Below are positions 19,446 through 58,371 of a stretch of 64,000 bases of DNA, piece after piece (within the stretch, counting starts at the first letter, position 1; every line of letters begins with the position of its first letter). The stretch lies in assembly GCA_001804865.1 (NCBI GenBank), contig MHBK01000045.1, positions 43,946 to 107,945 of the forward strand, given 5' to 3'. A model generated the notes under the pieces. It saw nothing but the letters and a program-made list of their open reading frames with translations. It did not search any database and was not told where the DNA came from. Source of the stretch: Lentisphaerae bacterium GWF2_57_35. Lineage in GTDB: Bacteria > Verrucomicrobiota > Kiritimatiellia > CAIQIC01 > GWF2-57-35. The position numbers and the translations under genes were made by a program.

Positions 19446-19497
19446 GGGAGCCACGGCTGACCATCTGCCTGACGACCAGGAATAAAGGAGCTCGACC

Positions 19498-19866: not shown

Positions 19867-19890
19867 CCGCGCTCGTCTGAAAGCATACCC

Positions 19891-20885: not shown

Positions 20886-20911
20886 GCGCCGGGGCAAGAT
20901 CGTCCCGGCGC
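20886..20911. terminator. GC-rich hairpin gcgccggg-(10 nt)-cccggcgc; rho-independent terminator for the minus-strand giant gene, probably bidirectional
   Basis: Perfect 8-bp stem. In the minus-strand orientation it is followed by TTTTC. It lies between the moaA stop (20871) and the giant gene stop (20938). Confidence 0.6.
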
Positions 20912-20937
20912 CATGCCTTCACCGGACCGCGACGGAA

Positions 20938-32900: not shown

Positions 32901-35900
32901 GCTCCGTCACCGTGAAGTCCGCGGCGTGAGCTCCCCCCATGGCCACGGCCGCCAGCGTCAGGGCCTCGTCGCCCTGGTTCGTGACCGTGAAGGTGCGCGT
33001 CAGCGAACCGCCGAGGTCCACATGCAAAGCGCCATAATCCGTGCCGTCCGCTTCAGAGGGCGTCGCGTCGCCGCGGAAAATGCTCGCGCCGTTCGTGCCC
33101 AGCACCATGATGTCGGGGCCGGTTCCCGGAGTATAATTCAGCACCAGATTGCTGCCGTCGAGCGCCAGACTGAACGTGCCGCCGCCCCGAGGCAGGGCCC
33201 AATACGTGAGATCCAACGCCAAGTTGTCGAGGGAAGAGACGCCGCCTTGGATGAGGATCCAACTGTAGCTTTGATTGCTGTCCCAATTCGACGCCGCCGA
33301 ACTGTCCGGATAAACCTTCACCGTGGCCGCGATCGAGGCCGCTCCGTCGTTGAGGATGAAGTCGCGGTCGGTCGCGTCCGTGCAATCCCCCAGCTTGAAC
33401 CGGAACGCCGAGCCGTTGTTCATGGTCAGCGAAGCCGCATGCAGGCAGCCGATATCTGTTGCGCTCGCGCCCGGCCATACCGTGCCGGACGCCGTCACGG
33501 CCGCCGCCTGACCCGCGCCCATCAGCGTGCCGCCGGCGGAGACCGTCACGGGCGCCACGATGTTCGTGCCGTTTTGAATCAGCGTGCCGGCCGTGATGGT
33601 CGTGCCGCCGCTGTTGGTGCTGGTTCCGCTTAGAATTAAGATGCCCGCGTCGATCTTGCTCACCGCGCCCGTGGACAGCCAACTGAGCGAACTCTCGATC
33701 CGGACGGTCCCATTGCCGCAGCTCTCGAGGTTGAATCCATAGCCGGTAATCGTGTTGGTCAGCGTCAGCATGTCCGCCTGGGAACCGATGCGCGTATGAG
33801 CCGTCAGAGCAATCGGGCCACTAAAAAGATTGTTGCCGAAGGCGTTGACCAGCGCTCCGATGTTCCCATATCCGTCACCTCGCAAGGTCAGCGGTTCCGG
33901 CAGCGTAACCATGCCTCCGCCCATTTTCAAACTGCAGCCATTCGTGACCACGGTCCCGGATGAGGTCAATCCCAGGGCGCTGGGATGAGTAAGGGTCAGG
34001 ACACCTCCCTTGATCGAGGTAATCCCCGAATAGTTATTGCTCCCCGAGAAAACAGCTTCACCAGCAGCTTCCTTCCACACCGCACCGGAACCGCTCAGAG
34101 GGCCTGCCAGGGTCCCCGGTTCTACCTGCCAAATGGAGAGGATCGAATTGTTCGTGATCCACCCCGGAAGGCCGCAGGTTCCACTGTAAAGAATGCCGGC
34201 TGAAACAATGGCGCCGCCTTCGTAAGTATTGGTTCCCAGGAACCACATCCAAGCCGTCCCTGCCTTACCCAATCCGCCATTGGTGATCGAATTTTTGATG
34301 GTTACATCTTTGGCAGCGGTTATCGTACGGAAACCGCCATGGAGATCGACCGGCCCGTTCAAGACCGTGACCCCGGGATTACTCCCGCCCAACTGGATGT
34401 TGCCATTAATCTGCACCGCCTTGTCGCAATTCAGTGCGGCCCCAGAACCCCGCGCCCGGTAGATGACGCCGTCTTCCAGGATCAAGACGCCGCCGACCGG
34501 CAAGGCAGCGGAGTCGTAGTGTCCTAAGCTGCCTTGAACAATATGAATGCTCCCTACCAGGGTGCTGTACCCGTAAATCTGCAGGTACCCCGCTCCGGTC
34601 TTGTAGATCGCGCCATCTCCATCCGTTTTGTAGGCATCGGCGATGACGGTCGCCGTTTCCATCGCAAAAGAGTTTTCCGAATTCAAATAGAGCGTGTGCC
34701 CATTCAAGTCGAACGATCCGCCATTCATATAGACCGTAACGCCGTCAACGCGAAACATGGCATTCGTGAAGAGAGAGACGTTTCCATACCAACGAGCCGC
34801 GTTGTTATTCGCAAGCCGGACGGCGCCTCGGTTCATGGTGTTTGTTCCATACACCAAAATCGACACAGGCCCCACGCCTGAATAAGCCGCGCCACTATTA
34901 AACAGCTCCAACTGGGCGTTCGTGCCAATATTTACCACATTCGGGCCATAGCCATTGGTATGGCAATAAAGGGTTCCTTCATCGACCCAAAGTCCCCCGG
35001 TATATGCACCGGGCTTCATCAGCCGCACCGGTCCCGCTCCCTGCTTCCTCAACCCGCCCGCTCCGCTGATGGGGGCTGACACGGTCAAGCTCTGCGCCGA
35101 GGCATTGCGCCACGCCTGGGTCGCGCCCAAAACTACATTGGCGCCGATCGTATGCGCAGCGCCGGCCCCCGAATCGACCACGATGCCCTGTTCGTTGATC
35201 GTCAGCGTATTGCTGCGGATGTTCAGCGCCGTATCGGCGTCGTCGTTGAACGTCAAGCCCGCCACCGTGCGATCGCCGTTAAGGTTGATGTTCGTGCCGG
35301 AAGCCAGACTCGCATAGAAAGCGGCATTCGACGAGGCGGCAGGCGTCACGTTGCCGATCCAATTCTCCGGGGTGTCCCACAACGAATTAACGCCTTCGCC
35401 GTCCCAGATCGCCTGAGCGGGCGGAGGGGGCGAAAAGACGAGCTTGAGACTTCCGGACTCTTCGATCATCGTGAACTGGCCGCCATCCAGGGACGAGGCG
35501 AAATCCGCGGTCGAGATGGAAAACTTGTTGCTGGCAAAGCCGCTGATGGAACCACTGGCGACCACCAGGGTATTCGTGTAACCAACCGTGGCGTCAAACA
35601 CGGGGCTGCCCTTCAAGGCAATCACAAAATCAGAACCGTCGACGGCATTGATGGCGACGGCCCCGCCGGCATCGAGCAGATCCCAATCCGCGCCGGCCGT
35701 GCCGGTCATGGAGGAAATATCCACCTGCAAGATGCCGTTGTTCTGCAAATTGACCGCGCCCGCCGTCAGCTTGCCGGCCGTATTGGACGCCCTGCCCGCG
35801 CTGACTTGGCCGGTAATCGTCAAATTTCCCACCCGCCCCACACCGTAGAGAAACGCGCCCCCATTGACCGTGACGGCCGAACTGGCGTTTGTGCCGTTTT

Positions 35901-38900
35901 GGATAAGCACGCCCCCGCCGACCGTCGTGGCGCCCGTATTCGTGCTTGTGCCGGTAAAAATCTGCGTGCTTTCTCCGAGTTTCATCAATCCAACGGAGCT
36001 GACCCCGTCCGCGATGACGCCGCTGAATGTCGTCGTGCCGCTGAGAGCGCTCAGCGTCAGGGTAACGGAAGCTGCTGTCGCGTTGTTGTTCACCACCCCA
36101 CCGCTGCCGCCGTAATCCGCCAACGAGGCCACCGTTTGGACGACGCCGTTCAGATCCAAGACGGCGCCGCCGGCAATCGAAACCGGAGTGTTGGTTGGAA
36201 GGCCATTAACTAATCTTAGGAACGAAATCAAAACATTGTCGATGCAGGAAGTTCTGTCCGCAACGTTGTTCGTTCCTAGAATGGTAATCGTGTGAGCACC
36301 GGCGTTGGCAAGGTATACGGTTCCCGTATACGATGACCAGGCTACGGAAGAGGGCGGCGCCCAGGCAAGGATTTCGCTTCCGTCCACCTGCAACTTCATC
36401 TGGTTTGGACCTAACCCGCCTCCACGCGAGACGGAGGAAAACGTGATGGCATATTGTCCGGGAGCGGACGACGTTACGACCTGAGAAATATTGCACGCCC
36501 GCTTGAAGAACGCTCCCTGTATCCCATCCGGTGCTGCAGGAGTATACCACGGAGACGAGTTTCTGGCGATGCCCGCCCATGCACTGCTGAATGTCCAACC
36601 ATACCCGACAGGCGCCACGGTTGTATAAAACGGGCTTGCAGTCTGTGGAGGAACCTCGAAACTGCTATTCGACACCGTGACGATCCCCACTTCACCGCCC
36701 AGCCGCAAGGTGCCGGCCTGGACCAGGGTCGCCCCCTCGTAGACGTTCGCGCTCAAGAGTTCCAGCACGCCTGAGCCCTGCTTGGTCAGCGAATGCGTGC
36801 CGGAGATCACCCCGCTGACCTTAAGAGCCGCCGTCGAGTCGTTGGTCCAACTCTGGTCCGAACCTAACGACACGTCGCTGGCGATGACATGCGCGCCGTC
36901 CGCGCCGGCGGCCATCGCGATGCCTTGTCCATTGATCGTCAGCGTATTGCTGGAAATGGTCACCGCCGAGTCTGCGTTGTCGTTGAAGGTCAAGCCCGCC
37001 ACAGTGCGGTCGCCATTGAGGTAGATGTTGGCGCCGGAAGCTATGCCGGTGTAAAACAAGATATTAGAGGAAGCCGGGGGAACCTCATCCCCCATCCAGT
37101 TCATAACCGTGTCCCACAAGGAGTCGGCGCCGCCGCCATCCCAGACGGCTTGCACAGTTTCAACATAAGGGGCGAAAACGATGCGGAGATTGCCTTCCGA
37201 CTCGTTAACGATAAAGGTTCCGCCATCCAGCGCCGGCGTAAACTCATCGGTGTCGATCGTGAACTTGTTGGTAGCAAAGCCGCTGTTGGAGGCGCTGCTG
37301 ATAATCGTGTTGGTATAGCCCACGCTGCTGTCAAACGTGGGATTGCCTTTCAAGGCGACGACAAAGTCGCTGCCGTCCGCGGCGTTGACCGCGATATCTC
37401 CGGTGGCGTCCACCAGATCCCAATCGGTTCCGGCCGTACCGGTCATGGCGGAGAGGTCGACTTGCAGGCGTCCGTTGTTTTGCAAATTCACGGCGGCCGC
37501 AACCAGATTGCCGACCGTATTGGAAGCGCTGCCCGCGCTGGCCTCTCCGGCGAGGGTGAGCGCTGCGACCTGGCCCGATCCATAAAGAAAAGCGCCGCTG
37601 TTGACGGTCACGGCCGAGTTGGCGTTGGTGCCGTTTTGAATCAGCGTGCCGGCGCTGACGGTCGTGTTGCCGCCGTGCGTGTTGGCGCCGGTGAGCGTCA
37701 GCGTACCCGTGCCCTGCTTGACCAATACCCCGCCCGCGCCGCTCATCACGCCGCCGAAGGCGGTCGAAGAATTATCCCCGCCGGCGGTCAGGGTCGAGTT
37801 GCCCATCGTGATCGATCCGTCGCCGGCGATGGAGCCGACCGTGTCGCTGCCGGCCGCCAGGTCCAACGTGGCGCCGCTGGAAACCGTCACGGCGCTGTTG
37901 TCCGAAAGACCGTTCGGGGCGGTCAGCTGAAGGAGGCCCTCGCTGATGGCGGTGGCGCCCGACCAGGTGCGCGTGGCGGACATGTTATTGAGCGTGAGCG
38001 TGCCGGGGCCGTCCTTGGTCAAGGTCGCGGCGCCCGTCGGAAGATCGCCCCAGATATCGACGGTTCCCGCGCCGCCCACGGTCAATCCGAGGCCGGCGCC
38101 GGAAATATCCGCATCGGCCCCCAGTTGCAGCGTCCCGCTGTCCGAGTTGATCCGCACGGCGCTACTCAAAGTAATGGGACCGGCAAAGGTGTTGTTCCCG
38201 CTGATGTTGCGTAGCGCGCCGCCGTTGCTCTGGCCGGCGCCGTCGAGCGTCAGCGATTCGTCGCCGGAGGGCGAGATGCCGCCGATCAACTCCAGCGCGG
38301 CGCCGCTGCGGACTTCGGTGTCGCCGTTGATCCACCCCAGGCCCCACTGATGGGCGATGCGCAAGACGCCGTTGGACACAATGGCGACGGAGTCGTAGTT
38401 GTTGAGGCCCGAGAGAATCAGCATCCCGACGCCGTCCTTGATCAAGCCGCCGTTGGAAATCTCGCCGCTGACGGTGTTGGTGTTGTCGCAACGAATCGTG
38501 CGCAGGCCGCCGCCCAGGCTGACGGCATTGGTCAGACTCAGCGCACCATTGTAAGAACTCGCCGCGCCCAACGTGATCTGGCCGTTGATCGTCATGGGCT
38601 TGCTCAGGGTGCGCCCGTCCGCTCCGTCGGACTGAATCGTCGTTCCGTCCGCCATGCTGAACGCGCCGCCGCCGCCCATCGTGCCCGTCGCGATTCGAAT
38701 CGTTCCCTGGTTGAGCGTAATCCCGCCGTCCAGCGAAGGGTCCGGACGAAGCGTGAAGACCGCCGAACCGGACTTGTGCAGGGCGCCGTCCCCGGCGGTC
38801 TTCGAGCCCGTCATGGCTCCGGCCGTCATGTAAACGTCAATCGTATTGGTGACATACAGGGTATACGCGCCCGCGGCCACCGCGCCTCTTGTATCCAGGC

Positions 38901-39957
38901 CGCCGCCCGTCACGACGATCCGCGAGTCCGCGCCGAGCGCGATATCCCCGGGCCATACGGTCCGGGCCGTCGAGGTCTTGCGCAGGGCGCCGGCCGCTGC
39001 GTTGGTCCCCGTGCCGAAAAGGTTCAGCGTTGAGGGACGCAGGGTCTCCGCGCCGTAGTTAAGATCCAGCGTCGCATTGGTGCCCACATTCACCAGGCCG
39101 CCGGCGCCCATCGCGTTGGTGTGCCCGCCGAGTTGCACGCGCCCTTTCTCGACCCAGATGGCGCCGGTAAAAGTGTTGTCGTTGGTCAGGATGACCAAGC
39201 TGCTCTGTTTGACGGCCACGCCGCCGCCTTGATCGAGCACGCCGCCGAGGGTCAGGGTTTTGCTGTTGTCGCCCCAAACGTCCAGCCAGTTGCCGTTGTT
39301 CCAAATTGTGGCGTTGAAGGTCAGATCGCCGTTCACGGGATTGAGCTGGGAAGCCGTCTGCAGAGCGATCGGCACATTGAACGTCTGGGCCGCCGATACG
39401 TTGTTTTCGATTTTAGCGCCGGCATTATACAGGTTAATGCCATTGCCGCCGTCCATCGTGCGGGCGCCGGTGGAGTCTTCGAACAAAATCTGGTTGACGC
39501 TGTACCAACTCGTATTCAGCGTCATGGAGACTTGATTGTTGTTGTTAAAATGAACGATATGATTGCCATAGCAATCCGGACGGCCGCGCGCATTGTTCGG
39601 CTCCCAGCCGTTGTACCACCAGGGACTGGCGGGCGTGCCCATATCGCTGCATCCCTGGCTGGAATCCCAATACAAATCGGTCCAATCGCTCCGCCAATAG
39701 ACGTCCACGCCCTTCGCCACGGGAAGCCCCATGAGCGCCACCCAACTTAGAAGACCCCACACGGCCAGGTTGCATTTAGTTCCCAGTCTGCGCTCACGTG
39801 AACCGGAATTTCTCCCAACGATTGAAAAAGAGTCCATATATTTTTCCAATGGTTGGAGTACGTCAGGCGGAAATCGTCTTAATCCACTTTTACGAACAGA
39901 ACACACGCTCCCCCCTGCGTTATGGTGGATACGACGCCAACCTACATAACAAAGCAT
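20938..39957 (-). CDS. giant (~6300 aa) secreted adhesin-like protein: PATR beta-strand repeats, CBM-like/LamG-like beta-sandwiches, ~10 cadherin-like modules (DxDxDR ... DDDxxxP), FN3-like domains
   Basis: 19-kb ORF with no stops. A probable signal peptide MDSFSIVGRN...LAVWGLLSWVALMGLPVAKG starts at the internal ATG 39837; the first 40 codons from 39957 are Arg-rich. The N-terminal third carries GTLTLNN / GTGTLTLTGANTHGGNTTVSAGTL PATR motifs. The middle carries NPGFEE / NPSFE / NSSFE / NASFE CBM-like starts. aa ~3550-5880 carry repeated ...DADNDR..(20 aa)..DDDTNAP... cadherin-like linker motifs. The C-terminus is FN3-like (SEYRVSTNT..., SWRSYKIYYTDDNTAPT). Confidence 0.9.
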   Translation of the reverse strand: MLCYVGWRRIHHNAGGSVCSVRKSGLRRFPPDVLQPLEKYMDSFSIVGRNSGSRERRLGTKCNLAVWGLLSWVALMGLPVAKGVDVYWRSDWTDLYWDSSQGCSDMGTPASPWWYNGWEPNNARGRPDCYGNHIVHFNNNNQVSMTLNTSWYSVNQILFEDSTGARTMDGGNGINLYNAGAKIENNVSAAQTFNVPIALQTASQLNPVNGDLTFNATIWNNGNWLDVWGDNSKTLTLGGVLDQGGGVAVKQSSLVILTNDNTFTGAIWVEKGRVQLGGHTNAMGAGGLVNVGTNATLDLNYGAETLRPSTLNLFGTGTNAAAGALRKTSTARTVWPGDIALGADSRIVVTGGGLDTRGAVAAGAYTLYVTNTIDVYMTAGAMTGSKTAGDGALHKSGSAVFTLRPDPSLDGGITLNQGTIRIATGTMGGGGAFSMADGTTIQSDGADGRTLSKPMTINGQITLGAASSYNGALSLTNAVSLGGGLRTIRCDNTNTVSGEISNGGLIKDGVGMLILSGLNNYDSVAIVSNGVLRIAHQWGLGWINGDTEVRSGAALELIGGISPSGDESLTLDGAGQSNGGALRNISGNNTFAGPITLSSAVRINSDSGTLQLGADADISGAGLGLTVGGAGTVDIWGDLPTGAATLTKDGPGTLTLNNMSATRTWSGATAISEGLLQLTAPNGLSDNSAVTVSSGATLDLAAGSDTVGSIAGDGSITMGNSTLTAGGDNSSTAFGGVMSGAGGVLVKQGTGTLTLTGANTHGGNTTVSAGTLIQNGTNANSAVTVNSGAFLYGSGQVAALTLAGEASAGSASNTVGNLVAAAVNLQNNGRLQVDLSAMTGTAGTDWDLVDATGDIAVNAADGSDFVVALKGNPTFDSSVGYTNTIISSASNSGFATNKFTIDTDEFTPALDGGTFIVNESEGNLRIVFAPYVETVQAVWDGGGADSLWDTVMNWMGDEVPPASSNILFYTGIASGANIYLNGDRTVAGLTFNDNADSAVTISSNTLTINGQGIAMAAGADGAHVIASDVSLGSDQSWTNDSTAALKVSGVISGTHSLTKQGSGVLELLSANVYEGATLVQAGTLRLGGEVGIVTVSNSSFEVPPQTASPFYTTVAPVGYGWTFSSAWAGIARNSSPWYTPAAPDGIQGAFFKRACNISQVVTSSAPGQYAITFSSVSRGGGLGPNQMKLQVDGSEILAWAPPSSVAWSSYTGTVYLANAGAHTITILGTNNVADRTSCIDNVLISFLRLVNGLPTNTPVSIAGGAVLDLNGVVQTVASLADYGGSGGVVNNNATAASVTLTLSALSGTTTFSGVIADGVSSVGLMKLGESTQIFTGTSTNTGATTVGGGVLIQNGTNASSAVTVNGGAFLYGVGRVGNLTITGQVSAGRASNTAGKLTAGAVNLQNNGILQVDISSMTGTAGADWDLLDAGGAVAINAVDGSDFVIALKGSPVFDATVGYTNTLVVASGSISGFASNKFSISTADFASSLDGGQFTMIEESGSLKLVFSPPPPAQAIWDGEGVNSLWDTPENWIGNVTPAASSNAAFYASLASGTNINLNGDRTVAGLTFNDDADTALNIRSNTLTINEQGIVVDSGAGAAHTIGANVVLGATQAWRNASAQSLTVSAPISGAGGLRKQGAGPVRLMKPGAYTGGLWVDEGTLYCHTNGYGPNVVNIGTNAQLELFNSGAAYSGVGPVSILVYGTNTMNRGAVRLANNNAARWYGNVSLFTNAMFRVDGVTVYMNGGSFDLNGHTLYLNSENSFAMETATVIADAYKTDGDGAIYKTGAGYLQIYGYSTLVGSIHIVQGSLGHYDSAALPVGGVLILEDGVIYRARGSGAALNCDKAVQINGNIQLGGSNPGVTVLNGPVDLHGGFRTITAAKDVTIKNSITNGGLGKAGTAWMWFLGTNTYEGGAIVSAGILYSGTCGLPGWITNNSILSIWQVEPGTLAGPLSGSGAVWKEAAGEAVFSGSNNYSGITSIKGGVLTLTHPSALGLTSSGTVVTNGCSLKMGGGMVTLPEPLTLRGDGYGNIGALVNAFGNNLFSGPIALTAHTRIGSQADMLTLTNTITGYGFNLESCGNGTVRIESSLSWLSTGAVSKIDAGILILSGTSTNSGGTTITAGTLIQNGTNIVAPVTVSAGGTLMGAGQAAAVTASGTVWPGASATDIGCLHAASLTMNNGSAFRFKLGDCTDATDRDFILNDGAASIAATVKVYPDSSAASNWDSNQSYSWILIQGGVSSLDNLALDLTYWALPRGGGTFSLALDGSNLVLNYTPGTGPDIMVLGTNGASIFRGDATPSEADGTDYGALHVDLGGSLTRTFTVTNQGDEALTLAAVAMGGAHAADFTVTEQPAASVAISSTTTFQVRFDPSAVGPRSATLYITNNVTDMSPYTLALQGVGDWPGIQMPTSIVQSCMLGLAVPTSSFAVTNVGYGTLSYAVTTNATWLTVSPVTGLLSRLAGQQHTVSYQVSGMAAGSYTGLITVTDAAASNSPRTAAVVLTLTSPPEPNSASVVGDGNELTRLTWNPNSTYTNLMIVHRAGAPLTAPTPGQAYGVGDACGGGEVLWTGASGFANYEHVVAPGQTHYYMFYTVVSSYYSAGLPRQVALDAYDAVVTEPFAYTNGVSLAGLNSAGNWADAWSVANGAWSITNLSASPGFPNMPWYPSNRANRVRVSAPDEGTESSAVRHFAPVSGGSLYVSALMTYQYKGVQKWAGIELVNNADSKAFVGKPWNASLESRFGLEAESSQTLSADYELVPNAGTGGDTGNVYLVIMKYNFSTRELSALAYYRTNQVPANEPSWAVSRTLSEGYLTTANGVRLKAGSSGGCGTVGDVQFDEIRVATSWEGVCNPPRKVIYDWFPSASGRLYLQGGGYGWGANTWQCDNDDNHIYDSGSFGANQWSCPTPQGHKIKLVATVNGSGHYASRAFETNFTSGKVYFSWMQNFDHAGGANSAYAGLYLMSNNQEKAFIGKVPGAAVMGLRWMGGTPDTNSAHEVSNGTGHDYLFVGCYDFDTRRLSANVYATNECVAEEPNGYWDVTTTLEEGHIDRITGIRLKGGVDSDNDNMIGNVYFDEVRVGTNWYEVTRREGEAQADAMIQGPIPRLLYVGTNYVAANNPQGSLTDITITDGQLYNTAEPLDFAVLWENVYGIWVTNANGALNISSRNGPVSPNWDPIRKAGSVSTEIGYDAFFTNFVGANGANTVTTYVHSAFNITNAVVNDTFYLSVTAENLNDDGGSFNAPNGADAVPYRRALSVNTTLQFYVQDDDDARPLMGDELLAIYRGNVRIGTNALATNLIANWNFNASNTVLSRGVGSMTYTCDAIAWYNGTTLNRVGSDVLGEAFGLYGNTINYKHFQFEISMGGHRDLVVSYALKGTESAATNQQWSWSCDGSNFTHHTTIPKEITTQTAWSVQTIDFSNVPRLNGATSVFIRCTLMGAATSGHNIFDNVQLNARKLVYELSDAELVGISEATPLRFVFAAYDEYSGLARGTTDADTNTSISIENVTDRNVTDFRAAYSSSTTTGLDATNAWQFTSMSSATLDNLLAAVSNEVWIYLRDADFDRVGDQIERAFMVGWLKVTDNDPFPPETGTLQPGNLLRNPGFEESINDALTPKYWETIGTSFDGESPFLHGGKWGSASRRDWPTDWGNQLGALCGTWAGAGDSGGFWQEATNNCGAGAVFEASAMIYNNATDTGHGLKIEFYDGTRVNQLAAYTNQFADPGATWTLASMTATSPANTAWIRWVIYAEGLGGSGAYSIDQTCLRVVTNAAMDIVHRGRSFYTSGSGTNALFVATDGDLAATASTDLFKFVFAAWDSNSVQRSAASEWMNYDLGGLGEFQNLYNTYRADLSSADTTGSSATSVFSHVYFTATYLSAPGAETGQIHQLLTAGEFPVSVSGPDADADRPGDEAWMVNRQFGRMQVVDDDTNGPRSWLIYAGSNYVAGQTYTNTIYDDALTDGLDIVYQTFDPSGVFLTNQVADATNADSSAGGNVNLNWDLVNPAGEDLLTDVLVSPENIHSLSGNGSLYATTTLFDVQIPFAARTVGVWRIQTSSQDADNDRGVYGDTVDGLAHQVSFDRAFQLNDWLQFNVIDDDSNYPTFYATNLLINPSFEINDIFYTTNPVHTRSNWVSSTGRVLWQGGGAPGGGAHCLRIYTEAETYETIWRPIPATEGKWYTFSIMSMRNQEAPCSWLCTYLKLECYDSTNLYYGNQLLTNQVDLSAIVTTSWRRLTHSIYTPPGTKSVRACFGYSVDYPTHLEGPEGYYIYWDDAFVGESVDLCDVRIGTSSVPTSVDGMYIRGTETFTNTIFYLSDESLYRVASTNPLHIRLGVLDADNRGRSGLLRGTTDPAAEMNLSIEGLCTNNVANFCPNKSSPFEETKTVLSSNVWEFDSFSVDQINALLSLGSVKIVATVRDADADRPADQLALSNQQFGVLSFADDDTTAPVISSLDVSGSSLYKSGTLLFYDFGSETLTTNPTFALERLDPAPIWFHDWAPDILTGVAGNPGRAAQASAGWMHWGGGVSYFMGRFAMDAGFSLNLTNVSFDYHTPIVDLWSFRVGLAFLVDTNPPVRLATNDLWATMNKPLDSAPFTGNSTWRLAGIADAAAEWPWTIDNVRFQGTVGPIKGLGYIGDGDLAEGTCVITGLVRDVGNGLLSISEPLGPRVNIFFPDGSQLFTNQAFTTGPTVNGQGQTAMPLAVALPAVNRAAIALGSYTGSVSVTDNDWDRPGDEQSTNVPLSFTVFDDDLSEPRYGTAFQFLTNLSGSAHLFGAMAPFVGDDFPQGAGSQSNRVWYVTDKHMVHAATTNVELHFNLYDLSGCALSSETGGSNMTVSVENYVTDNYANYNAGRSSLDNANNLFATSVWAFASFSDVQIAALMETTSRVSISVTDRDTDRPDDSLGRTDWQLGYIAWRDNDPTAPALQTLRNTNASLLVWLGGTSLQTAASSLWIPPTPQTNIVSSNQIFQITDGQLAGVSETNLLQFRFHTYDLGRDNILGLQRGTTFTANVNGHTLTNTHMSVGATITNNTANFRGSVDWSSPYEHTKDALLSPTSTWVYTSFTYDQVGELLSVLPVQSNQITLAVYDADNDRNLDQASAVLEAGWLAVSDDDASAPVVGSCGGTRLKNSSFELMGGTAYKAYGWDYGFPDESGNWWGTATRENWRARSGAYEMSLNAWSPGTNAGIWQQAANTSPDGTLWNGSAWFWSDNGVGGGPGLYVFTAVVCEVKIEFFDAGFTMIDSAAQSFTPPGEVWTQVSLSKTSPVGTAWARLVVAASGMGSAGTAQGGGLQIDDVMFGPTPPLAVKVGEVYIEASDASTNAVFTIFDSQLGTNSLSLLFGGYDPDSGLARGASSATTQMNVTVEGFAANNVANYSAADSTADSTSDGAASVWKWTLSGAEINDLIAAGPMRILATLYDADNDRAGDYLVATNKQYGYLRIIDDDTNAPAASELHIKNGQQMTDSDIRFGLWNINMVLADESEVALSTEGEYFAANYSLINAVGAMVHTAVGWTYTDRVGASNIWTVGRAAPGVGYADVTTGLYSFVWSATDKDSDRASDRLQTLNSTNILYSTNTFLVVDDDVVEPTTPSNIVMTPYGWTNVNHFVLAFDPSLDASGISEYRVSTNTAEPSLTIDGEPLAATYVTNYLPTLISNASFEVGSDELSIPADPDSVNNWRSFVSDGGYLNFADEAGGQEGTLATRHIIAAGTRADGSPRYTLCSQDIYLNNSNRLRPFISFSGWFKGDLSRVGVGNNYAAGFLKAEGFNAISVRTWIVENEWDDDHNGSPLVGVNAAVWTQALMTVTNATADTEFIRLSCGISGHNSQMPSTGYWDHLSVTVSVQSIGGVIYTNAPNGITTNWFFAVDDDDDRLSDRLKSPNTNFVIMYDGVAPTQIMNVVVAPGSFDDTSEIDLTWSRPNNGGGVGADPLSPWRSYKIYYTDDNTAPTTNSPHFTFEDNPALSNRLTEAITLSNFVFGIDYNVAIAGVDAAGNEGPMSDPHNVLLSGFFVTQGVAVATTDLGRAEIAWTAAEGREYDLIYTDASDFSAALSNRWQLAGRGVTCMLCDTGDVDAGRSPPRMLGNNMRFYRAAQKDRWMTNQWRRVASEGIYALKAIHLKPGFNWVSFPGVPDTCTAFRVFGHNLPSGESELLSTRVSWHKRGSIATATQTIWLSSSPLQWQSGDENADDMLVPLNEGVVIEIPEDATAQTSLFIGRIPTNTQEQLIKGGTMASPAYNLVSFGLPRNVHPSQMNLLESGFKGGLRPSHSDKLLKYDRANQQVSGAGIWYKTSDMTWREASGVNGAIVGYNCFTPDDGIVIAATHTNDWVWTNKLIYTLPTRFMSP
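35152..36213 (-). repeat. copy 2 of a ~1.74-kb in-frame tandem duplication inside the PATR region of the 19-kb gene (partner 36889-37950)
   Basis: The peptides QNGTNASSAVTVNGGAFLYGVGRVGNLTITGQVSAGRASNT...LQNNGILQVD and QNGTNANSAVTVNSGAFLYGSGQVAALTLAGEASAGSASNT...LQNNGRLQVD are encoded 1737 bp apart. The antisense shadow ORFs 35152-36213 and 36889-38214 are paralogous. Confidence 0.8.
36889..37950 (-). repeat. copy 1 of the ~1.74-kb internal tandem duplication (partner 35152-36213)
   Basis: See partner copy. Offset is 1737 bp (579 codons), in frame. Confidence 0.8.
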
Positions 39958-40140
39958 TAGTCGTAGAAAAATCCGGCTTCGTTACCTTGAGCAAAAAAAA
40001 GTTTGGAGAGGAACGGATTCGCATATTTGCGAAAATTGTTTTTGACGTAGAGGGCGGATTTTCCAGTTGTTAGCCCATATAGTGCATGAGCTGTGTGGAA
40101 AAGGAGAAGTCGGCTCGTAAACGCGGAAAGGGCTTTCGAC

Positions 40141-40243
40141 GGACCGCCGCGGAACAACGGGCTTATGAAGCGGGTCGGCAGCGTATAGATCAACTGGGCA
40201 GCCCGAACGAGACCAGATTATACGCAGGACTGGCCATCGATCA
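40141..40243 (-). pseudogene. degenerate fragment of the 3' end of the 19-kb gene (3' UTR plus last 13 codons fused to a 51-bp patch from 260 bp further upstream), located just upstream of that gene's own start
   Basis: 40141-40192 nearly matches 20925-20976 (..cgggctYatgaagcgggtcggcagcgtatagatcaa; encodes IYTLPTRF[M/I]SP with the stop TAG changed to TTG). 40193-40243 nearly matches 21238-21288 (ctgggcagcccgaacgagaccagattatacgcRggactggccatcg). Confidence 0.75.
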
Positions 40244-40316
40244 TACCGGGTGCATCCGGACACTGCCGCAGATTTCTGTTTCCAACCCAAAGGAACTGCT
40301 GCTTACGGACGGCTAG

Positions 40317-43300
40317 TTACGGTACGCGAATGCGGAAATACCCTTCAACCGCCTCCACCCCCAGCGTGACTACATTGTCCACCGGGGTGGGAGGCGCATT
40401 CGTACAGATAACTCTCCAAGCCCCCTCCAAGTCTTCGTTCCGCTCCAGATACTGCAAAACCCCCGTCCCTCCCTGCCAATAAATCAAGCCGGCACTGCTT
40501 TCCGTGCGTATCTGGCCCAGCCGCAAACAAGACGTTGCGTTGGTTGGATTCGTATCGACCCGGAATTCCTGCCAGGAGAAAAGACCGTCAGAATCGGCAT
40601 CCGCTTCGACGTCCGCCTCAAAGTTCGTCAGACCGTATCTCGCCAGCCACGCTTCGGGGATGCCGTGGTTGGTCGTCAGATTTGCGGTGAAAGAGGCGCC
40701 GATCGATTTGGGCGAATCCATCCACAGTTCCAAGGGGTTCACGCTTCCCGAAACGTCGCCGGTCCACTGGACGAAGTGACAGTAGGCATCGGCCAAGGCC
40801 GCGATGGACGTCGTTACCCCGGCGGGCTGCCAGCCTGACGGCACATTCACGGCGCCCTGCGCTCCGGCGCCCGTCGCCAGCCAGAAATTGGTGGTCCACA
40901 ACCACGCCAACATCGCGTCGTTGGTTACCGCCATCGTGAATTCCGTCGCAGAACCGGACGCCGGGTCGTGGCCGGTCATGACCCAGCCGCAACTGACGAA
41001 CTGGGTGGCGCCGCGCGTGTCGGGCGTCGTCACGCGATGGGTCACGAGGGTCTCCTCGACCAGCAGATGGGCGCCCGTGGAAAGCTCGGACGAACCGTAA
41101 CAGGACTCGACCGAAACCGTATACAATCCATAGACGCGGAAGAGGTTGGTGATCGTCGGAGCCGGGAACCAGTTCTCGTTGCCGGTCTGCGCGGCGGCGA
41201 TGGAGACATAGCCGCGCTGGGTGAAGGAAAGCAAGGTCGTGTCTTCGATCGACGCGGGACCGGATTCGATGGTGTAATCGATCTTGAAGTTGGAATCGGC
41301 CGAGGCCGCCAGCCGAACCGTGTTGGTGACCACCTGGTTCCCCGGCGTGGGGAAGGCAATGGCCTGTTCGGCCCGCTGAACGATCAGAGTCGAGGCCGCC
41401 ATGCCCATGCTGTCGAGCTCCGTGACGGCGCCGGTGACGACATAGACGCCGGCCTCGACAGGCACGTTCGTCTGGCCATTGTACGTGAACCCAACATTCA
41501 ACCCGGAAGGATCCGTCGTTGCCGTCACATAGCGGGGATAGCGGTTATAGAGCTGGACCAGGTTGTCCAGATAGACCGTCGCACTGCTCCGATAGCGATA
41601 GGCGTTGGATTTGACCGTTTCGCCATAACCGGCGGAATACACCCGCACATCTCCCAGCCCCACGGAACCGGCAGCGGTCTGCACAACCACTTGGGTAGAA
41701 CACTGGCTGATCACGCTCGCGACCGGAGCGCCGCAGAACGTCACGTTCGTAATGTCGGTCCCATTGCCCAGGTTTTCCCCGTCGATGACCACGGCCGCGC
41801 CGCCTTCGACCGGACCGTTGGTCGGATTCACGCCGAAGCGATATTGCACCCAGGCCGGCGACCATCGGGCGGAATTGGTCATGGCGATAAGGCCCGACTG
41901 GGTGAAATCGCCGCCCGCGAAGACCTGGCCGTCGGGTCCGAATTCCAAGGCTCTGACGACCGGCGATGAAAGCTTGGTCAATCCTTGTCCAAGGCCACTC
42001 CAGGACGATCCATTCCAATAGGCCACGCAAGACACCACGACTCCTCCGGCCGCATAGAAAGCGCCTCCTGCATACAACCCGTCTTTTCCGGCTGTCTTCA
42101 GTGCATAGACGGTACTGCCCATGCCTCCTCCCACGGAAGACCAAGACGTGCCGTTCCACTTGGCCAGGCGGTTCACGGTTGAACCGCCGGCGAAAGAAAA
42201 GGAACCGCCCACGTAGAGTTCGCCGCGCTGCCCCAGCGCCAACGCGTAAGCCGTGCTGCTTAAGCCCGACCCCAGATTGGTCCACGAGCTTCCGTTCCAG
42301 TAAGCCACGCGATTGGCGGCCTGGCTTCCCGCATTCGTGAAGTCCCCCGCAGCATACAGGCCGCCGTTCGTATCGAGCGCGAGGGCTAAAACCGTAGCCC
42401 CCAGGCCAGCTCCCAAATTCGTCCAGACCGCTCCATTCCAGAAGGCGACCCGATTGGCCGGCATACCGCCCGCCGTCGTGAAAGCTCCCCCGGCATAAAC
42501 GTGCCCGTTGGAGTCAACCGCCAGCGCGGCGACGGAGGCGTTCATTCCACTACCCATCGCCGTCCAGGCCCCTCCCGTCCAACAGGCGATATAATCGGTC
42601 AAAAAGCCCATCCCCGTTGTGAATCCTCCCCCGGCATACAGAACACCGCCGCCGACCGAGGCAATGGCATTAAGCAAGCTGAGGCCCGGACAGGCATTCG
42701 TCCAGGACGTTCCCATCCAGCGCATCACCCCACTGCCCGAATACGATCCGGCATATAACGATCCATCCACCGGATCGATCGTGAACGAGTATACGGTGGA
42801 ATTGATGCCCATCATATTGGTCCAGGCATAAGGGCCGTAGTCCGTGCGGCCGATCGTCCCGTTCGGGTTGTACGTGTAAGCGTCTTCGAGCAGCGTGTTG
42901 CCTTGAAGGACGGATTGAACGACTACGTCAACCGCCCCGGGGTCGTGACCGGGCACGCTGAATTCCACCCAATTTTCGCCGGACGCTTGAATGGCCGCGT
43001 TCTGTCCGCCGATCACTACATTGGTGATCGCGTCTCCGCCGGGCAGGACCAGATTGGTAACGATCAGGCTGTTGCCTCCGGCCTCCGGCCCGGCCGATAC
43101 GCTCAAATCGAATCGCCCCCAACCGGCCAGATTCACCGTGTAGTTGGTGAAGTCGTTCAAGAGGGACACGACGGCGCTTTGAGCGCCTCCCGCCACAGGA
43201 CTGAATACGACCGAGAAGGCGTCCGTTTCTCCCGGCGCAACCGTTGCGGGCCATCCGGAAATACAGAACCGCGCCGCCGCAGCGCCGCTGGTGGAAACGC

Positions 43301-46300
43301 CGGTCATGTGCAAATCGTTGGATTCGATGTTCGTGACGAACAGGATGCTGGTTGCGGACGAGCCCACCTGCACTTCACCGAAGTCGGTGCCCGCCGCCGG
43401 CAGGGCCGGCTCGCCGCTGGGCAGCACGATCAGGCTGTTGGTTCCCAAAACCAGGATGCGCGGTGCGTAGTAGGCGAAAGCATTAGATTTGACGGTATTC
43501 CCATAAGTCGTGGAATAGACGACGACATCCCCCAGCCCGGCCGGCCCGGCATTCGCCTGCACAACGACCTGGGTCGAACACTGGCTCAAGATCCCCGTCG
43601 CCGAAATCCCGCAAAGGGTCACGTTGGTAATGTCCGAACCACTGCCCAAATTCAGGCCCTGGATCGTCACGTTCATGCCGCCCAGGGTCATGACGGAGGC
43701 AGGATGCACCCCCAAGTTGACCACCTGCGCGCTCGCCCACTTGGCAATGCCGCTGGCCGACACAACGCCCGCTGTCCCGAAATTGCCGCCCACCAATAAT
43801 TCACGATCCCCCGTCGCCAGCAGGGCGCTAACCGATCCCCCGCGGACGCCCGAGCCCAAGCCCATCCAGTTGGTCCCGTTCCACGAGGCCATGCCGGCGG
43901 CCGGAGCGGAATCCGCCGTCGTAAACGATCCTCCCGCATAAATCAATCCGTTCGGATGCTCCAACAGCGTATTCACGTAGTTGTTCATACCGACGCTCAT
44001 GCCGCCCCAGGCGCTTCCCGTCCATCGGGCGGCATAACCGCTGACCGTTGTGAAAATCCCGCCTATGGCCAAGACGCCGTTCGTACCGCACATGATATCG
44101 TAGACTGTATTGTTGACGCCGCTGCCGAGGGCATGCCAGGCCGCGCCATCCCAGTAGGCTACGCGCGAGGCCGCCCCTCCGCCCGCCGAAGTAAAACTTC
44201 CCGCCGCATACAGCATGCCGTCAGATCCCCAGGCCAAAGAGTTGACCGGAGCATTCAACCCCGAACCCAGATTGGTCCACACGGTTCCATTCCACATCGC
44301 CACGCGAGTGGCCGGCATCCCGCCCGCCGTGGTGAAGCCCCCGCTCGCATACAATTCCCCGTTGGAACTCAGAGCCAGAGCCGAGGCATAGCTGTTGAGG
44401 CCCGTGCCCAGATTCGTCCACGTCGAGCCATTCCAACAGGCGATGTAATTGGCCGATTTTCCGCCGGCCGTCGTGAAGCTGCCGCCGACATAAAGCAATC
44501 CCCCGGTCGTCGCCAGCAGCGCGCTTACCGAGCCGTTCATGCCCGAGCCCACATTCGTCCAGGCTGTTCCATTCCACCGGGTGATGTGATCGACCCGTGT
44601 CCCGTCTGCATAATAAAAACCGCCGCCGGCATAGATGACGCCATCCGGGGTGCGCGCCAAAGCAACCACCGAATGAGCGCTGCCGGATACCCCAACGCCC
44701 AGGTTGGTCCACCCATAAGGCTCATAGCCGGACCAGCCGATGACGCCGGAAGGCTTGTACTCGTAGACTCGATCCAAAACGAGCTCGCTCGTTCCCTCCG
44801 TTTGCAGCACGATATCCACCCAACCGGCCTCATGCGCCGGCAAGACAATGGACAACCAGTCGTCTCCCTGCCCAACGATCGCCGCCGAAATACCGCCCAC
44901 CCATACATTGGTGACGGTTGACGCCCCGCCAAGAGCCAGATTGGTCAAGGTCAACAGCCCCCCGCCGACGGCAGGCCCGGCGCGAGCGCTCAGGTCATAA
45001 ACGCGACAGCTCAGGTTCAGGATGAAGTTCGTCCCTTCGCATGGGATCGTCAACCAGGCATCCCGCCGGCCCACTTGGGCGCCGGTAAATACCACGGCGA
45101 TGTTGCTGCTTATGTCATGAGACATCGGCCCTTCGGGGATGCCGCCGAAGGAGAAGGAGCTTTGCCCCGGGCCCTCGACCCACGACGTTCCCATGTAAAC
45201 GGTCCGGGCGGCGTCCGCCTTTAAAAGAAACCTGTTGGTCCTGGACTCGCCTTTCAGCACAAGCCCGGCATCCGTGCCAAAGTTCGTCTGGGCTGGGGCG
45301 CCATACGGCACATCCACCCCCGCCTCCGTCTCCACATACAACGCCGGAGGCCGATCCGGATTCGGGCTCGGCAGCAGATCGCCGTTGCCCATGTAGATGG
45401 CGTTGGTCATGCCGCCAGTGCCGGCGCGCGCCAGCGTACCGGTCAAGCGGACATTATCCAGGAAGAAGACATAGGGCATGTTAAAGAGCGTATGCGAGAC
45501 ATTGATCGAGAGTCCGTCGATCAGATTCCAGTGAGCCGCGACCTTCGGCCATGACGGCGGCGTGTTGAACTGGCTGAGACGAAAACTGAAATGCTGAAAA
45601 GCGCCGTTATTCGTATAGCTCGTCGGACGCAAAGTGACGCCGTCGAGACCCGTGCAGACAGCCAGTTCTACAGGGCAAGTAAGCCCTCCCGTGCCGTTGG
45701 TTTTCTGAATGCAGAGGTCAAAGCTGAACCAGATGTTCGAACGCAGGGCCAGGGAGGAGAAGTCTTCAGCCCGATCGAGCGCCCAATGATAGGTATGCCC
45801 GCTGTATGTGAAATAGGACCGGGTGCAAAGATATAGAAATTGCGATTGCCTCCCGTGGGTGCGAGGTTCAAGGCCGATGCCTTCGTCCCACCAGTAAGGC
45901 TTGTCGACGCTGTCCCAAAGCCAGACGAGCATCGGCGCGTCGTTGATGTAACTGGGCTTGATATTCCCGGGGACGCGATCCTCGAAGCTGTCGATCAGAT
46001 CCGACGTGATCGGCTCGGCCACCAGCAGGCTTCTCCACCAGGCATTGGTGGGCATTTCGGCCGGCGTCGTAATGCTGAACATATGCATCCCCGATCCGCT
46101 TCTCGTGACCCAATTGGTCGTCAGCAGAAGATTGGTATGCACATCCAGCAGGTCCAGGACAATTCGATAACTTTGCTGCACCACATCGTCCTCCGACGGC
46201 GGCCATTGATGCTCACGATTCAGCGGACAGGGGCCTTCCTCCGGGAGATACGAGGGAACGTCCTCCCACGTGACGGGAATTTCATACGTGGTATTCGGCG

Positions 46301-49148: not shown

Positions 49149-49462
49149 GCAAACCTCCCAGAGGACTAATACATACTAACTCAACCGTCCAAAGCCTGTT
49201 TTGAACCGAGGAAATCGTCCTTATGCTCCTCAACGAACAGAGATACACCAAATGACCACACGTTAATAGAGAACCGGACGCTGTTTTCCCCTACCACAAT
49301 CTTGATTACACTTATAAGACTAGTATGCATATAGTATGCATGTCAAGACTTCTTTATCTCAGAGGGTTTGAAGGCATTTTGGTGCATGGCGGGAAGCCTC
49401 TTATTGAAGGGTTGCGACGAAGTTTAGATGACGACCAAGCCCCGAGAGTCTATCATCCGGTT

Positions 49463-50653: not shown

Positions 50654-50654
50654 T

Positions 50655-51119
50655 ATGTTATCGCACATAAGAAAAAATCGACCGGTCATGGTGAATGTCG
50701 GAAACAAAGAGGCGACCCATCGCATCGCCTGCGCCCAAGCCATTGTCCGGCTCCCGGAACCCGTTGCCCGCGCGGTCCGAAAAGGCGACATCGCCGGCCC
50801 CAAAGGCCCGATTCTGCAAACGGCCCGGCTCGCAGGCATCATGGCCGCCAAACAAACGTCCTCCTTGATCCCCTTGTGTCACCCCCTGGCGCTCGAAGAT
50901 TGCCGGATCGAGATTCGCTTCCCAAAGCGCAACGAGCTTCACATCGAGTGCACCGTCGAAACCCACCATAAGACAGGCGTTGAAATGGAGGCCCTGACGG
51001 GCGCCTCGGTGGCCGCCCTGACCGTTTACGACATGTGCAAAGCCCTTTCTCACCGCATCGTCATCCGCGAGATCCGGCTTCTGAAGAAAACGGGAGGCCG
51101 GCATGACTTCAACGGATGA
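50655..51119 (+). CDS. moaC: cyclic pyranopterin monophosphate synthase MoaC
   Basis: ...SSLIPLCHPLAL...GVEMEALTGASVAALTVYDMCKA... is the MoaC signature. The ATG lies 1 nt after the moeA stop. Confidence 0.9.
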   Translation: MLSHIRKNRPVMVNVGNKEATHRIACAQAIVRLPEPVARAVRKGDIAGPKGPILQTARLAGIMAAKQTSSLIPLCHPLALEDCRIEIRFPKRNELHIECTVETHHKTGVEMEALTGASVAALTVYDMCKALSHRIVIREIRLLKKTGGRHDFNG

Positions 51120-57779: not shown

Positions 57780-58242
57780 GTGCGTCCTTATAGCTCTTCC
57801 AAATCGATTGATTTCAACCCCAATGCGTATCCCATACAAGACGTTAAGCAAGCCTAATCAAAACGAATGCGAAATGCACGGCAAATTATGAACATTGGCT
57901 GCTTCAACGACCGATGCTCTTCGCCAGGAAACCAGCCGCCTCTTCCATAACGCATGAAGACCCGACTCTCTTACGCTTAATGCTAGTTGTATACTAGTTG
58001 CTTTCATATAAATCAAGCGGTTTTTCCGTGAAAAAGAAAAAAGATGGGTGTTCGCAATCTTCGTACGCATACGATGCCTTTCGCCCAGGCTTGCAAGGAG
58101 CCGCGACGTCCCCGTAACGCCTCCGCAGTTCTCTTTTATCGGCAACGGACGGCGAGATCGACGAGGAGAGCGTCCACGGCCTCGAACCGCCGTCATGATG
58201 AAAAACTGGCTGAGCCAGCCTGGGGTGCATCTTGACACGGCC

Positions 58243-58371
58243 TCCGCGCATATGAATAAGAATCCACGTCCTTACGGACGCGGCTACGTAGCTGCCGGCG
58301 TAAGCCGGTGGTTTCTTTCCAGTGCCAGACGTTGAGGAGGGGCAGTCAAGATGCACCCCCAGCCTGTTGAC
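58243..58371. repeat. copy B of the ~125-bp structured intergenic repeat (copy A at 11068-11188)
   Basis: Same hairpins and the GCTACGTAGC palindrome. It lies 85 nt upstream of the sigma-factor gene, in a 600-bp divergent intergenic region. Confidence 0.8.

What the first reader, a model, noticed from the sequence alone, without database searches (positions are those of the whole stretch)
40141..40243. Scar copy of the 19-kb gene's own 3' end sitting immediately upstream of its start codon
Seen directly: the 359-bp spacer between the two giant minus-strand genes contains 40141-40192, nearly identical to 20925-20976. That segment is the gene's 3' UTR plus its last 13 codons; it encodes IYTLPTRF(I)SP with the stop mutated to TTG. 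It is fused to 40193-40243, which nearly matches 21238-21288, so ~260 bp are deleted relative to the intact gene. This points to a past tandem duplication or gene-conversion event involving the giant gene, followed by massive deletion. It could equally mean that the upstream 2943-aa gene once carried this C-terminus. The fragment spawns two spurious ORFs (39982-40290 and 40086-40316) that could be mis-annotated.
Basis: seen in the sequence. Interest (0 to 1): 0.6.

Follow-up and report, generated by a model that had tools for sequence, protein, structure and literature searches.

The report
Decayed copy of giant gene's tail
A 108-base broken copy of the last stretch of a 19-kb gene sits just upstream of that same gene; it is a real but ordinary piece of genomic debris from a recent local duplication, with no sign of a function.

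Summary
Window 40132-40193 matches 20915-20976 (55/62 nt) and the adjoining 40194-40239 matches 21239-21284 (45/46 nt). Both are in the same orientation, and 262 nt of the parent are missing between them. The parent is the 3' end of minus-strand giant gene A (6339-aa ORF): its last 12 codons, the stop codon and 23 nt of 3' flank.

The copy is frameshifted, its stop codon is now TTG, and it lacks the invariant motif of A's C-terminal domain. Three independent assemblies carry it base for base, and it differs from the parent at 8 positions, so it is not an assembly artefact.

A sister species has the same B->A gene pair but no scar in its spacer. B's C-terminus (...YFRIRVP) is conserved in its orthologue and paralogues, so B never carried this tail.

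No promoter, terminator, Rfam family or unusual fold was found. Best reading: a young, lineage-specific, non-functional pseudogene fragment left by a duplication of A's 3' end.

The context is more interesting than the scar. The whole 28.5-kb B-scar-A block is an insertion that splits a moaA-moeA operon which is contiguous in three relatives. The scar's homology ends within 0-8 nt of that block's edge.

The parts
40194..40239 (-). Scar piece 1. A copy of A's codons for (T)MASPAYNLVSFGLP. It has one synonymous difference from the parent.
   Evidence: 45/46 nt identical to 21239-21284. tblastn to A's C-terminal domain gives 93% over 15 aa.
40132..40193 (-). Scar piece 2. A copy of A's last 12 codons (LIYTLPTRF[M->I]SP), its stop codon (TAG->TTG) and 23 nt of 3' flank. 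It is in a different frame from piece 1.
   Evidence: 55/62 nt identical to 20915-20976. Five of the seven mismatches lie in the 23-nt flank.
21239..21284 (-). Parent segment of piece 1, inside the C-terminal domain of gene A.
20915..20976 (-). Parent segment of piece 2: the end of gene A, its stop codon (20938-20940) and 23 nt of 3' flank.
20977..21238 (-). The 262 nt of gene A that have no counterpart in the scar. They encode the family-invariant HPSQMNLLESGF motif of the C-terminal domain.
   Evidence: Coordinates; motif from alignment A1.
20938..39957 (-). Giant gene A. The ORF is 6339 aa; the likely true start is MDSF at 39837, giving 6299 aa. It has PATR repeats and an uncharacterised C-terminal domain of about 270-320 aa.
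   Evidence: ORF list; Pfam; the 6299-aa form is the library representative P0138; signal-peptide region aligned with the sister orthologue.
40317..49148 (-). Gene B (2943 aa). It has a GH42-like N-terminus plus TIG, MBG and beta-propeller domains. Its C-terminus ...YFRIRVP is intact.
39958..40316 (.). The B-A spacer that holds the scar. The layout is 74 nt of unmatched sequence, then the 108-nt scar, then 174 nt of unmatched sequence down to the long ORF's ATG. No other coding remnant is present.
20886..20911 (.). G+C-rich hairpin (GCGCCGGGG...CCCGGCGC) with a UUUUC tail on the minus strand. It is the likely terminator of A. It lies just outside the repeat and partly matches the sister species' sequence downstream of moaA. 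The scar has no counterpart of it.
   Evidence: Fold; alignments; coordinates.
20913..49377 (-). The 28.5-kb block (A, scar, B and B's upstream region) inserted between moaA and moeA. It is bracketed by a perfect 9-nt inverted repeat: ATGCCTTCA at 20913-20921 and TGAAGGCAT at 49369-49377.
   Evidence: Collinearity of sister contig L051 with window 11878-20868 and 49463-51113; outgroups L052 and L053; junction mapping; the 9-mer.
40086..40316 (+). Spurious 76-aa ORF antisense to the scar. It is annotated as a gene in public gene calls.
   Evidence: Called at L001 18833-19063, and in shorter form at L002 17927-18148 (window 40095-40316); ORF list; no Pfam match.

Best explanation
The scar is a non-functional pseudogene fragment. 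After this species split from its sister species, the 3'-terminal part of giant gene A was duplicated into the spacer upstream of A. The duplicated part ran at least from position 21284 to about 25 nt past the stop codon, roughly 370 nt, and may have been much more. The copy then decayed. Everything 5' of codon ...TMASP was lost, an internal 262-nt deletion shifted the frame, the stop codon mutated to TTG, and a few substitutions accumulated.

Shown: the homology, the decay, the lineage specificity, and the absence of any recognisable signal.

Inferred:
- That the source was a duplicate of A itself, in tandem or partial, rather than another paralogue.
- That the duplication happened before or during the relocation of the 28.5-kb B-A block into the moa operon. 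The homology between the scar's flank and A's flank stops where A's flank becomes moa-operon DNA.
For: 1. Highly significant, collinear, same-strand homology to A's 3' end that includes non-coding flank.
2. The scar is much closer to A (89-98% nt) than to the paralogous giant gene C of the same genome (84% over only 31 nt).
3. Frameshift, lost stop codon, loss of the invariant motif and no start codon.
4. The sister species has B'->183 nt->A' with no scar detectable by blastn or tblastn. B/B' and A/A' are only 76% and 70% identical in protein, so the scar, about 7% diverged from its parent, is far younger than the species split.
5. Two assemblies run through the whole spacer at 100% identity and the third matches up to its break at the repeat.
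6. No Rfam match above threshold, no sigma-70-like promoter on either strand, no terminator-like site on the gene (minus) strand, and fold z-scores near 0.
7. No other coding remnant in the spacer.
8. In-register identity falls to random immediately beyond both ends of the scar. The 3' end of homology (20915-20923) abuts the mapped block junction (20910-20914).
Against: - No intermediate state was found in any relative, neither an intact second copy nor a scar without the 262-nt deletion. Only one relative at useful distance was available.
- There is no microhomology at the internal junction. That fits one-step patch capture as well as it fits a later deletion.
- Absence of function rests on negative scans only. 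Promoters in this phylum may not fit the sigma-70 consensus.
- The 23-nt flank is more diverged (5/23) than the coding part (3/85; Fisher p = 0.01), so the last 8 nt of 'homology' may be noise.
Confidence: 0.75

Rival explanations
1. One-step templated patch. While a break in the B-A spacer was being repaired, or while the 28.5-kb block was being copied into the moa operon, the polymerase switched template twice. It copied 46 nt and then 62 nt of A's 3' end up to the physical end of the donor DNA, and then resumed. On this reading no longer duplicate ever existed.
For: - The two short pieces are joined bluntly, with no microhomology and no residual sequence between them.
- The second piece ends within 0-8 nt of the block's own end, as expected if synthesis ran off a donor end.
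Against: - The scar differs from its parent at 8 of 108 sites, so if it was templated the event is not very recent.
- There is no direct evidence for such repair in this organism.
- A later 262-nt deletion in a longer copy explains the same structure.
Confidence: 0.15
2. Functional element. The 3'-end copy is kept because it does something. It could serve as a direct-repeat handle that lets the cell loop out the 19-kb gene A (on/off variation). It could also be part of A's leader or B's trailer that affects expression.
For: - Direct repeats of 46 nt (32 nt exact) and 62 nt flank gene A, 19.2 kb apart.
- B and A may be co-transcribed through the scar, since no terminator-like site was found between them on the minus strand.
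Against: - The repeats are very short and imperfect for RecA-dependent recombination.
- No contig with the predicted deletion junction was seen among the six contigs that carry B.
- The sister species has none of it.
- No structure or RNA family was found.
- No similar 3'-end copy occurs near 31 other genes of this C-terminal-domain family.
Confidence: 0.05
3. Former C-terminus of gene B. B once ended with the same domain as A and lost it by deletion and a new stop codon.
For: - The scar lies only 74 nt downstream of B's stop codon, on B's strand.
- In A the domain follows a ...RFYRAA motif that resembles B's terminal ...YFRIRVP.
Against: - B's end is conserved in orthologue P0005 and paralogue P0006, and P0007 carries the same motif three residues before its end; none carries the domain.
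- The scar is 89-98% identical in DNA to A, whereas B and A otherwise share no DNA similarity.
- The scar carries A's 3' flank.
Confidence: 0.02
4. Assembly artefact: a chimeric join created by the repetitive giant genes.
For: The Logan contig L003 ends at window 40196, inside the repeat.
Against: - A megahit k141 contig (ENA) and the NCBI MAG contig both run through the whole spacer with 100% identity.
- The scar has 8 substitutions relative to the parent, which a mis-join would not create.
- The Logan break is what a 32-nt exact repeat would be expected to cause if, as assumed here, Logan assembles with 31-mers.
Confidence: 0.01

Closest known systems
Ordinary gene remnants (pseudogene fragments) left by duplication followed by deletion in bacterial genomes
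   Same: A short, frameshifted, start-less copy of part of a neighbouring gene. It is lineage-specific and shows no signal of function.
   Different: The parent is a 19-kb giant gene. The fragment keeps the extreme 3' end plus flank, and it lies upstream of its own parent.
Orphan C-terminal modules of polymorphic giant genes (rhs, cdiA 'orphan' CT/immunity cassettes); comparison from general knowledge, not tested against a database here
   Same: Fragments of the 3' end of a very large surface or secreted protein gene that lie next to the full-length gene and are produced by recombination.
   Different: - Those orphans lie downstream of the main gene.
- They keep an open toxin-coding tip with an immunity gene.
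- They share a 5' homology block that allows swapping.
- Here the fragment is upstream, 108 nt long, broken, nearly identical to the resident tip, and has no partner gene.
attL/attR duplication of a gene's 3' end by integrative elements (as at tRNA and tmRNA genes); general knowledge
   Same: A duplicated 3' end of a gene forms direct repeats that bracket a long DNA segment. One repeat ends at the edge of a demonstrably inserted block.
   Different: - The only genes on the block's coding (minus) strand are B and A, and no integrase or recombinase family turned up where Pfam hits were looked at.
- The repeats bracket gene A itself, not the inserted block.
- The upstream copy is internally deleted.

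Membership tests
Pseudogene fragment derived from a neighbouring gene | Nucleotide homology to a parent gene far above chance | tested here: met
   E values of 2e-17 and 6e-17, at 89% and 98% identity.
Pseudogene fragment derived from a neighbouring gene | Reading frame destroyed or incomplete | tested here: met
   A 262-nt deletion shifts the frame, the stop codon is mutated, there is no start codon, and only 27 of about 6300 codons are left.
Pseudogene fragment derived from a neighbouring gene | Not conserved in relatives (lineage-specific, free to decay) | tested here: met
   Absent from the sister species' B'->A' spacer. Variation within the species could not be assessed because the assemblies are identical over the stretches they cover.
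Rhs/CDI-type orphan C-terminal cassette | Lies downstream of the full-length gene and keeps an open toxin tip plus an immunity gene | tested here: not met
   The fragment lies upstream of A and is frameshifted. The rest of the spacer holds no coding remnant, and the small ORFs have no family match.
Integrative-element att duplication | A site-specific recombinase gene inside the segment bounded by the repeats | tested here: not met
   The segment between the repeats is gene A only. Pfam on about two thirds of A (both ends, not the middle third) shows PATR and fn3 only, and the precomputed Pfam hits for the whole gene list no recombinase. The 28.5-kb block's only minus-strand genes are B and A.
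Integrative-element att duplication | Relatives with an empty site lack the bounded segment | tested here: not met
   The sister species lacks the scar but still has A' directly after B'.
Known structured RNA or regulatory leader | Match to a curated RNA family, or a fold more stable than shuffled sequence | tested here: not met
   The only Rfam hit is mir-22 at E = 0.21, below the gathering score. Nothing in the window reaches a gathering score. Fold z-scores are +0.09 and +0.31.
Assembly artefact | Present in one assembly only, or identical to the parent repeat | tested here: not met
   Two assemblers run through the whole spacer at 100% identity and a third matches up to its break at the repeat. 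There are 8 differences from the parent.

The most novel reading that the evidence does not exclude
The end of A's 3' flank, about 25 nt after the stop codon, is a defined cassette boundary. On this reading, giant genes carrying this C-terminal domain (alone or as the B+A pair) move as discrete units.

Three observations fit it:
- The 28.5-kb B-A block sits inside a moa operon that is intact in the relatives examined, and it is bracketed by a 9-nt inverted repeat.
- The sister contig looks like a unit of about 28.4 kb that starts again after its end.
- The scar ends at the same boundary, which would make it the terminal stub of a previous cassette copy.

If true, this would be a mobility mechanism for very large surface-protein genes with no recombinase encoded nearby.
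Probability: 0.07. Interest if true: 0.65.

Novelty: new member of a known kind. Interest (0 to 1): 0.2.

Why it matters
The scar itself matters little. It is a small relic that has already misled annotation pipelines into calling a 76-aa gene, and it breaks short-k-mer assemblies at that point.

Its value is as a marker of recent rearrangement. It led to three findings:
- Two giant genes (28.5 kb together) were moved as one block into the middle of a molybdenum-cofactor operon in this Lentisphaerae/Kiritimatiellae-like lineage.
- Giant genes of this type alternate with B-type genes at two other loci.
- Gene A ends in an uncharacterised domain that is always C-terminal and is found in about 400 protein clusters.

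These points bear on how very large bacterial genes are duplicated and relocated.

Tried and rejected
- Search for A's N-terminus in species-representative genomes: no relative found.
- Metagenome scan with B's C-terminus: only distant relatives at 47% identity or less, so no closer species to date the scar.
- Alignment of the B-A spacer with the sister species' spacer: not alignable beyond B's last codons.
- Test whether the 471-aa gene downstream of paralogue B2 is the intact counterpart of the scar: no similarity to A.
- Search for similar 3'-end copies near 31 other genes with this domain: none.
- Search for terminal repeats between the scar and the block ends, and for homology of the rest of the spacer to any fetched locus: none.
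- In-register extension of homology into the hairpin region: only a GAAAAG 6-mer, not significant.
- AlphaFold2 model of A's C-terminal domain from a 4-sequence alignment: pLDDT 45, too poor for a fold search.
- One cluster look-up was wasted on wrong coordinates.
- Literature search for giant genes in these phyla: nothing relevant.
- Adjacency of a domain-bearing giant gene followed by a B-type gene: not general among the distant loci.

Full report
**1. The observation**

The spacer between the two minus-strand giant ORFs holds two abutting segments that match the 3' end of gene A. The ORFs are B (40317-49148, 2943 aa) and A (20938-39957, 6339 aa).

- 40132-40193 matches 20915-20976: 62 nt, 55 identical, E 2e-17.
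- 40194-40239 matches 21239-21284: 46 nt, 45 identical, E 6e-17.

A self-comparison of the whole window finds only one other dispersed repeat at 85% identity or more, so this is not background similarity of G+C-rich DNA.

The first segment covers A's last 12 codons, the stop codon and 23 nt of 3' flank. The second covers the codons for TMASPAYNLVSFGLP. The 262 nt that separate them in A (20977-21238) are absent, which puts the two pieces in different frames.

The copy reads SMASPAYNLVSFGLP and LIYTLPTRFISP, and the stop codon TAG is now TTG. In-register identity drops to random just outside both ends.

**2. It is real DNA, not an assembly product**

Exact look-up of protein B found it on six contigs. 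Two of the three loci fetched run through the whole spacer with 100% identity to the window: an ENA megahit contig (L001) and the NCBI MAG contig DNKJ01000081.1 (L002). The third, a Logan contig (L003), is identical as far as it reaches and stops at window 40196. That is where a 32-nt exact repeat would be expected to break the assembly graph if, as assumed here, Logan uses 31-mers. The scar also differs from its parent at 8 of 108 positions, which a mis-join would not produce.

**3. What the parent sequence is**

A is a PATR-repeat giant protein. Its last 270-320 residues follow an ...MRFYRAA motif and have no Pfam or NCBIfam match.

A profile of this domain finds 398 cluster representatives at E<=1e-3. 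In the full-length proteins among the 150 best hits listed it is at the extreme C-terminus of very large proteins, up to 7945 aa. It also finds 32 loci in Kiritimatiellae/Verrucomicrobiota MAGs.

The domain has an invariant HPSQMNLLESGF motif. That motif lies inside the 262 nt missing from the scar. An AlphaFold2 model was too poor to use (pLDDT 45).

Source names for the 100%-identical B and MoeA proteins place the organism next to 'Lentisphaerae bacterium GWF2_57_35'.

**4. Comparative evidence on origin**

*Sister species.* A metagenome contig, L039, carries B' (76% identical to B) followed after 183 nt by A' (70% identical to A over 3266 aa). Its spacer cannot be aligned with the window's, and it contains no trace of the scar by blastn or tblastn. 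The scar is only about 7% diverged from its parent, whereas the orthologous proteins are 24-30% diverged. So the scar arose well after the two species split.

*Source of the copy.* The scar is closer to A than to the same genome's paralogous giant gene C. C's domain is 65% identical to A's in protein, and the scar matches C's DNA only over 31 nt at 84%. The source was therefore A itself or a recent duplicate of it.

*B's C-terminus.* ...EGYFRIRVP is matched residue for residue at the end of B' (...YFRVRVP) and of paralogue B2 (...CYRLRVN). A third paralogue, P0007, carries the motif three residues before its end (...FYRIRATRE).

*No intact counterpart or parallel case.* The 471-aa gene that follows B2 is unrelated to A, so it is not an intact counterpart of the scar. 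No similar 3'-end copies occur near 31 other genes of the domain family.

**5. No sign of function**

- The spacer has no Rfam match above threshold. The only hit is mir-22 at E = 0.21, and no hit anywhere in the window reaches a gathering score.
- There is no sigma-70-like promoter on either strand and no terminator-like site on the gene (minus) strand. The only terminator-like hit is the plus-strand palindrome at 40018-40033.
- RNA folds are no more stable than shuffled sequence, with z-scores of +0.09 and +0.31.
- A's own terminator-like hairpin (20886-20911, with a UUUUC tail on the minus strand) lies just outside the repeat and has no counterpart after the scar.
- The rest of the spacer holds no coding remnant of any protein in the fetched loci.
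- The small ORFs over the scar have no family match.

**6. Context found while tracing the origin**

*The block is an insertion.* Gene A is followed, convergently, by moaA (19891-20871). B is preceded, divergently, by moeA-moaC-mobA-moaD-moaE. A second contig from the sister metagenome, L051, is collinear with window 11878-20868 and then with 49463-51113. There, moaA and moeA are 210 nt apart with no giant genes between them. Two outgroup MAGs also have the contiguous operon. The roughly 28.5 kb holding A, the scar, B and B's upstream region is therefore an insertion into the moa operon in this lineage. That L039 and L051 come from one organism is inferred from the shared sample and similar divergence.

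*Junctions.*
- Left junction: homology to the sister's sequence downstream of moaA runs to about 20909. The A/scar homology starts at 20915-20923.
- Right junction: homology of B's upstream region to the sister's runs to about 49362. Similarity to the moeA-upstream sequence resumes at about 49378.
- A perfect 9-nt inverted repeat sits at the two junctions: ATGCCTTCA at 20913-20921 and TGAAGGCAT at 49369-49377. The window has four copies against 0.47 expected. This was noticed post hoc. The repeat could be the element's ends or the two arms of a split target hairpin.

*What this implies for the scar.* The scar's copy of A's flank ends within 0-8 nt of the block edge. The simplest reading is that the duplication predates or accompanied the relocation, so that any further flank homology was cut off at the breakpoint. 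This is inference.

*The sister contig.* It begins inside the 3' end of an A-type gene lying 437 nt upstream of B'. That 715-aa stretch is 74% identical to A and 71% to C. Either the sister has a second A-like gene there, or its B'-A' unit (about 28.4 kb) is tandem or circular. The rest of the contig could not be fetched.

**7. Explanation and rivals**

- Best explanation (0.75): a young, lineage-specific, non-functional relic of a duplication of A's 3' end, eroded by deletions and point changes. Whether the duplicate was ever full-length cannot be told.
- Rival 1 (0.15): a one-step templated patch made during repair or relocation.
- Rival 2 (0.05): a functional repeat or leader element.
- Rival 3 (0.02): B's former C-terminus.
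- Rival 4 (0.01): an assembly artefact.

**8. Comparison with known things and verdict**

The scar meets the defining features of an ordinary pseudogene fragment. It fails the features tested for Rhs/CDI orphan cassettes, for att duplications by integrative elements, and for known RNA elements (see the membership table).

It is a new example of a known kind and of low interest in itself (0.2). The most novel reading not excluded is that these giant genes move as discrete cassettes with a defined 3' boundary, of which the scar is a stub. I give that about 7%.

Noticed in passing
window 20913-49377 (flanks 19891-20871 moaA; 49463-50650 moeA): The whole B-scar-A block (28.5 kb, two giant genes, opposite strand) is inserted between moaA and moeA. 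It splits a moaA-moeA-moaC-mobA-moaD-moaE operon that is contiguous in the sister species (L051) and in two outgroup MAGs (L052, L053). In the sister species the B'-A' pair sits elsewhere (L039).
   Followed up: yes
window 20913-20921 and 49369-49377: A perfect 9-nt inverted repeat (ATGCCTTCA / TGAAGGCAT) lies at the two mapped junctions of the inserted block. The window has 4 copies against 0.47 expected. There is no target-site duplication. The repeat could be element ends or the arms of a split target hairpin. This was a post hoc observation.
   Followed up: partly
window 20941-21840 (C-terminal domain of gene A); loci L007-L038: An uncharacterised domain of about 270-320 aa with an invariant HPSQMNLLESGF motif, ending ...Y(T/S)LPTR(F/Y)MSP. 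It has no Pfam or NCBIfam match. It occurs in 398 protein-cluster representatives and, in the full-length proteins among the 150 best hits listed, sits at the extreme C-terminus of giant proteins (up to 7945 aa) of Kiritimatiellae/Lentisphaerae/Verrucomicrobiota MAGs. The AF2 model was poor (pLDDT 45).
   Followed up: partly
L040/L041 (same genome, about 17 kb beyond the high end of the window); L039 1-2586: B-type genes are preceded by A-type giant genes at two other places. One is giant gene C (at least 5694 aa), then 158 nt, then B2 (58% identical to B) in this genome. The other is an A-like 3' end, then 437 nt, then B' in the sister species. The sister contig may represent a tandem or circular B'-A' unit of about 28.4 kb, which is the size of the block inserted here.
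   Followed up: partly
window 11057-11179 and 58234-58354: A 123-nt dispersed repeat (93.5% identical) made of three short hairpins (CGTCC..GGACG, GGCTACGTAGCC, CCGGC..GCCGG). Each copy lies just upstream of a TTGAC-type promoter-like site and a plus-strand gene: a CBM-like 190-aa ORF and an ECF sigma factor. There is no Rfam match.
   Followed up: partly
window 49319-49346: Upstream of B, in gene orientation, there is a TTGACA followed by a tandem 11-nt direct repeat (ATGCATACTAT ATGCATACTAG). It is conserved upstream of B' in the sister species and looks like a promoter plus operator that travelled with the block.
   Followed up: no
window 39837-39957: The 6339-aa ORF probably starts at MDSF (39837, giving 6299 aa). 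That is the form used by one gene caller and by the library representative, and only the signal-peptide region aligns with the sister orthologue. The scar-derived ORF 39957-40193 ends in a TAATG overlap with the upstream ATG; this was taken as coincidence.
   Followed up: partly
window 40018-40033: A perfect palindrome TTCGCATATTTGCGAA in the B-A spacer, about 100 nt downstream of the scar. It may be an operator of gene A. It scores as terminator-like only on the plus strand.
   Followed up: no
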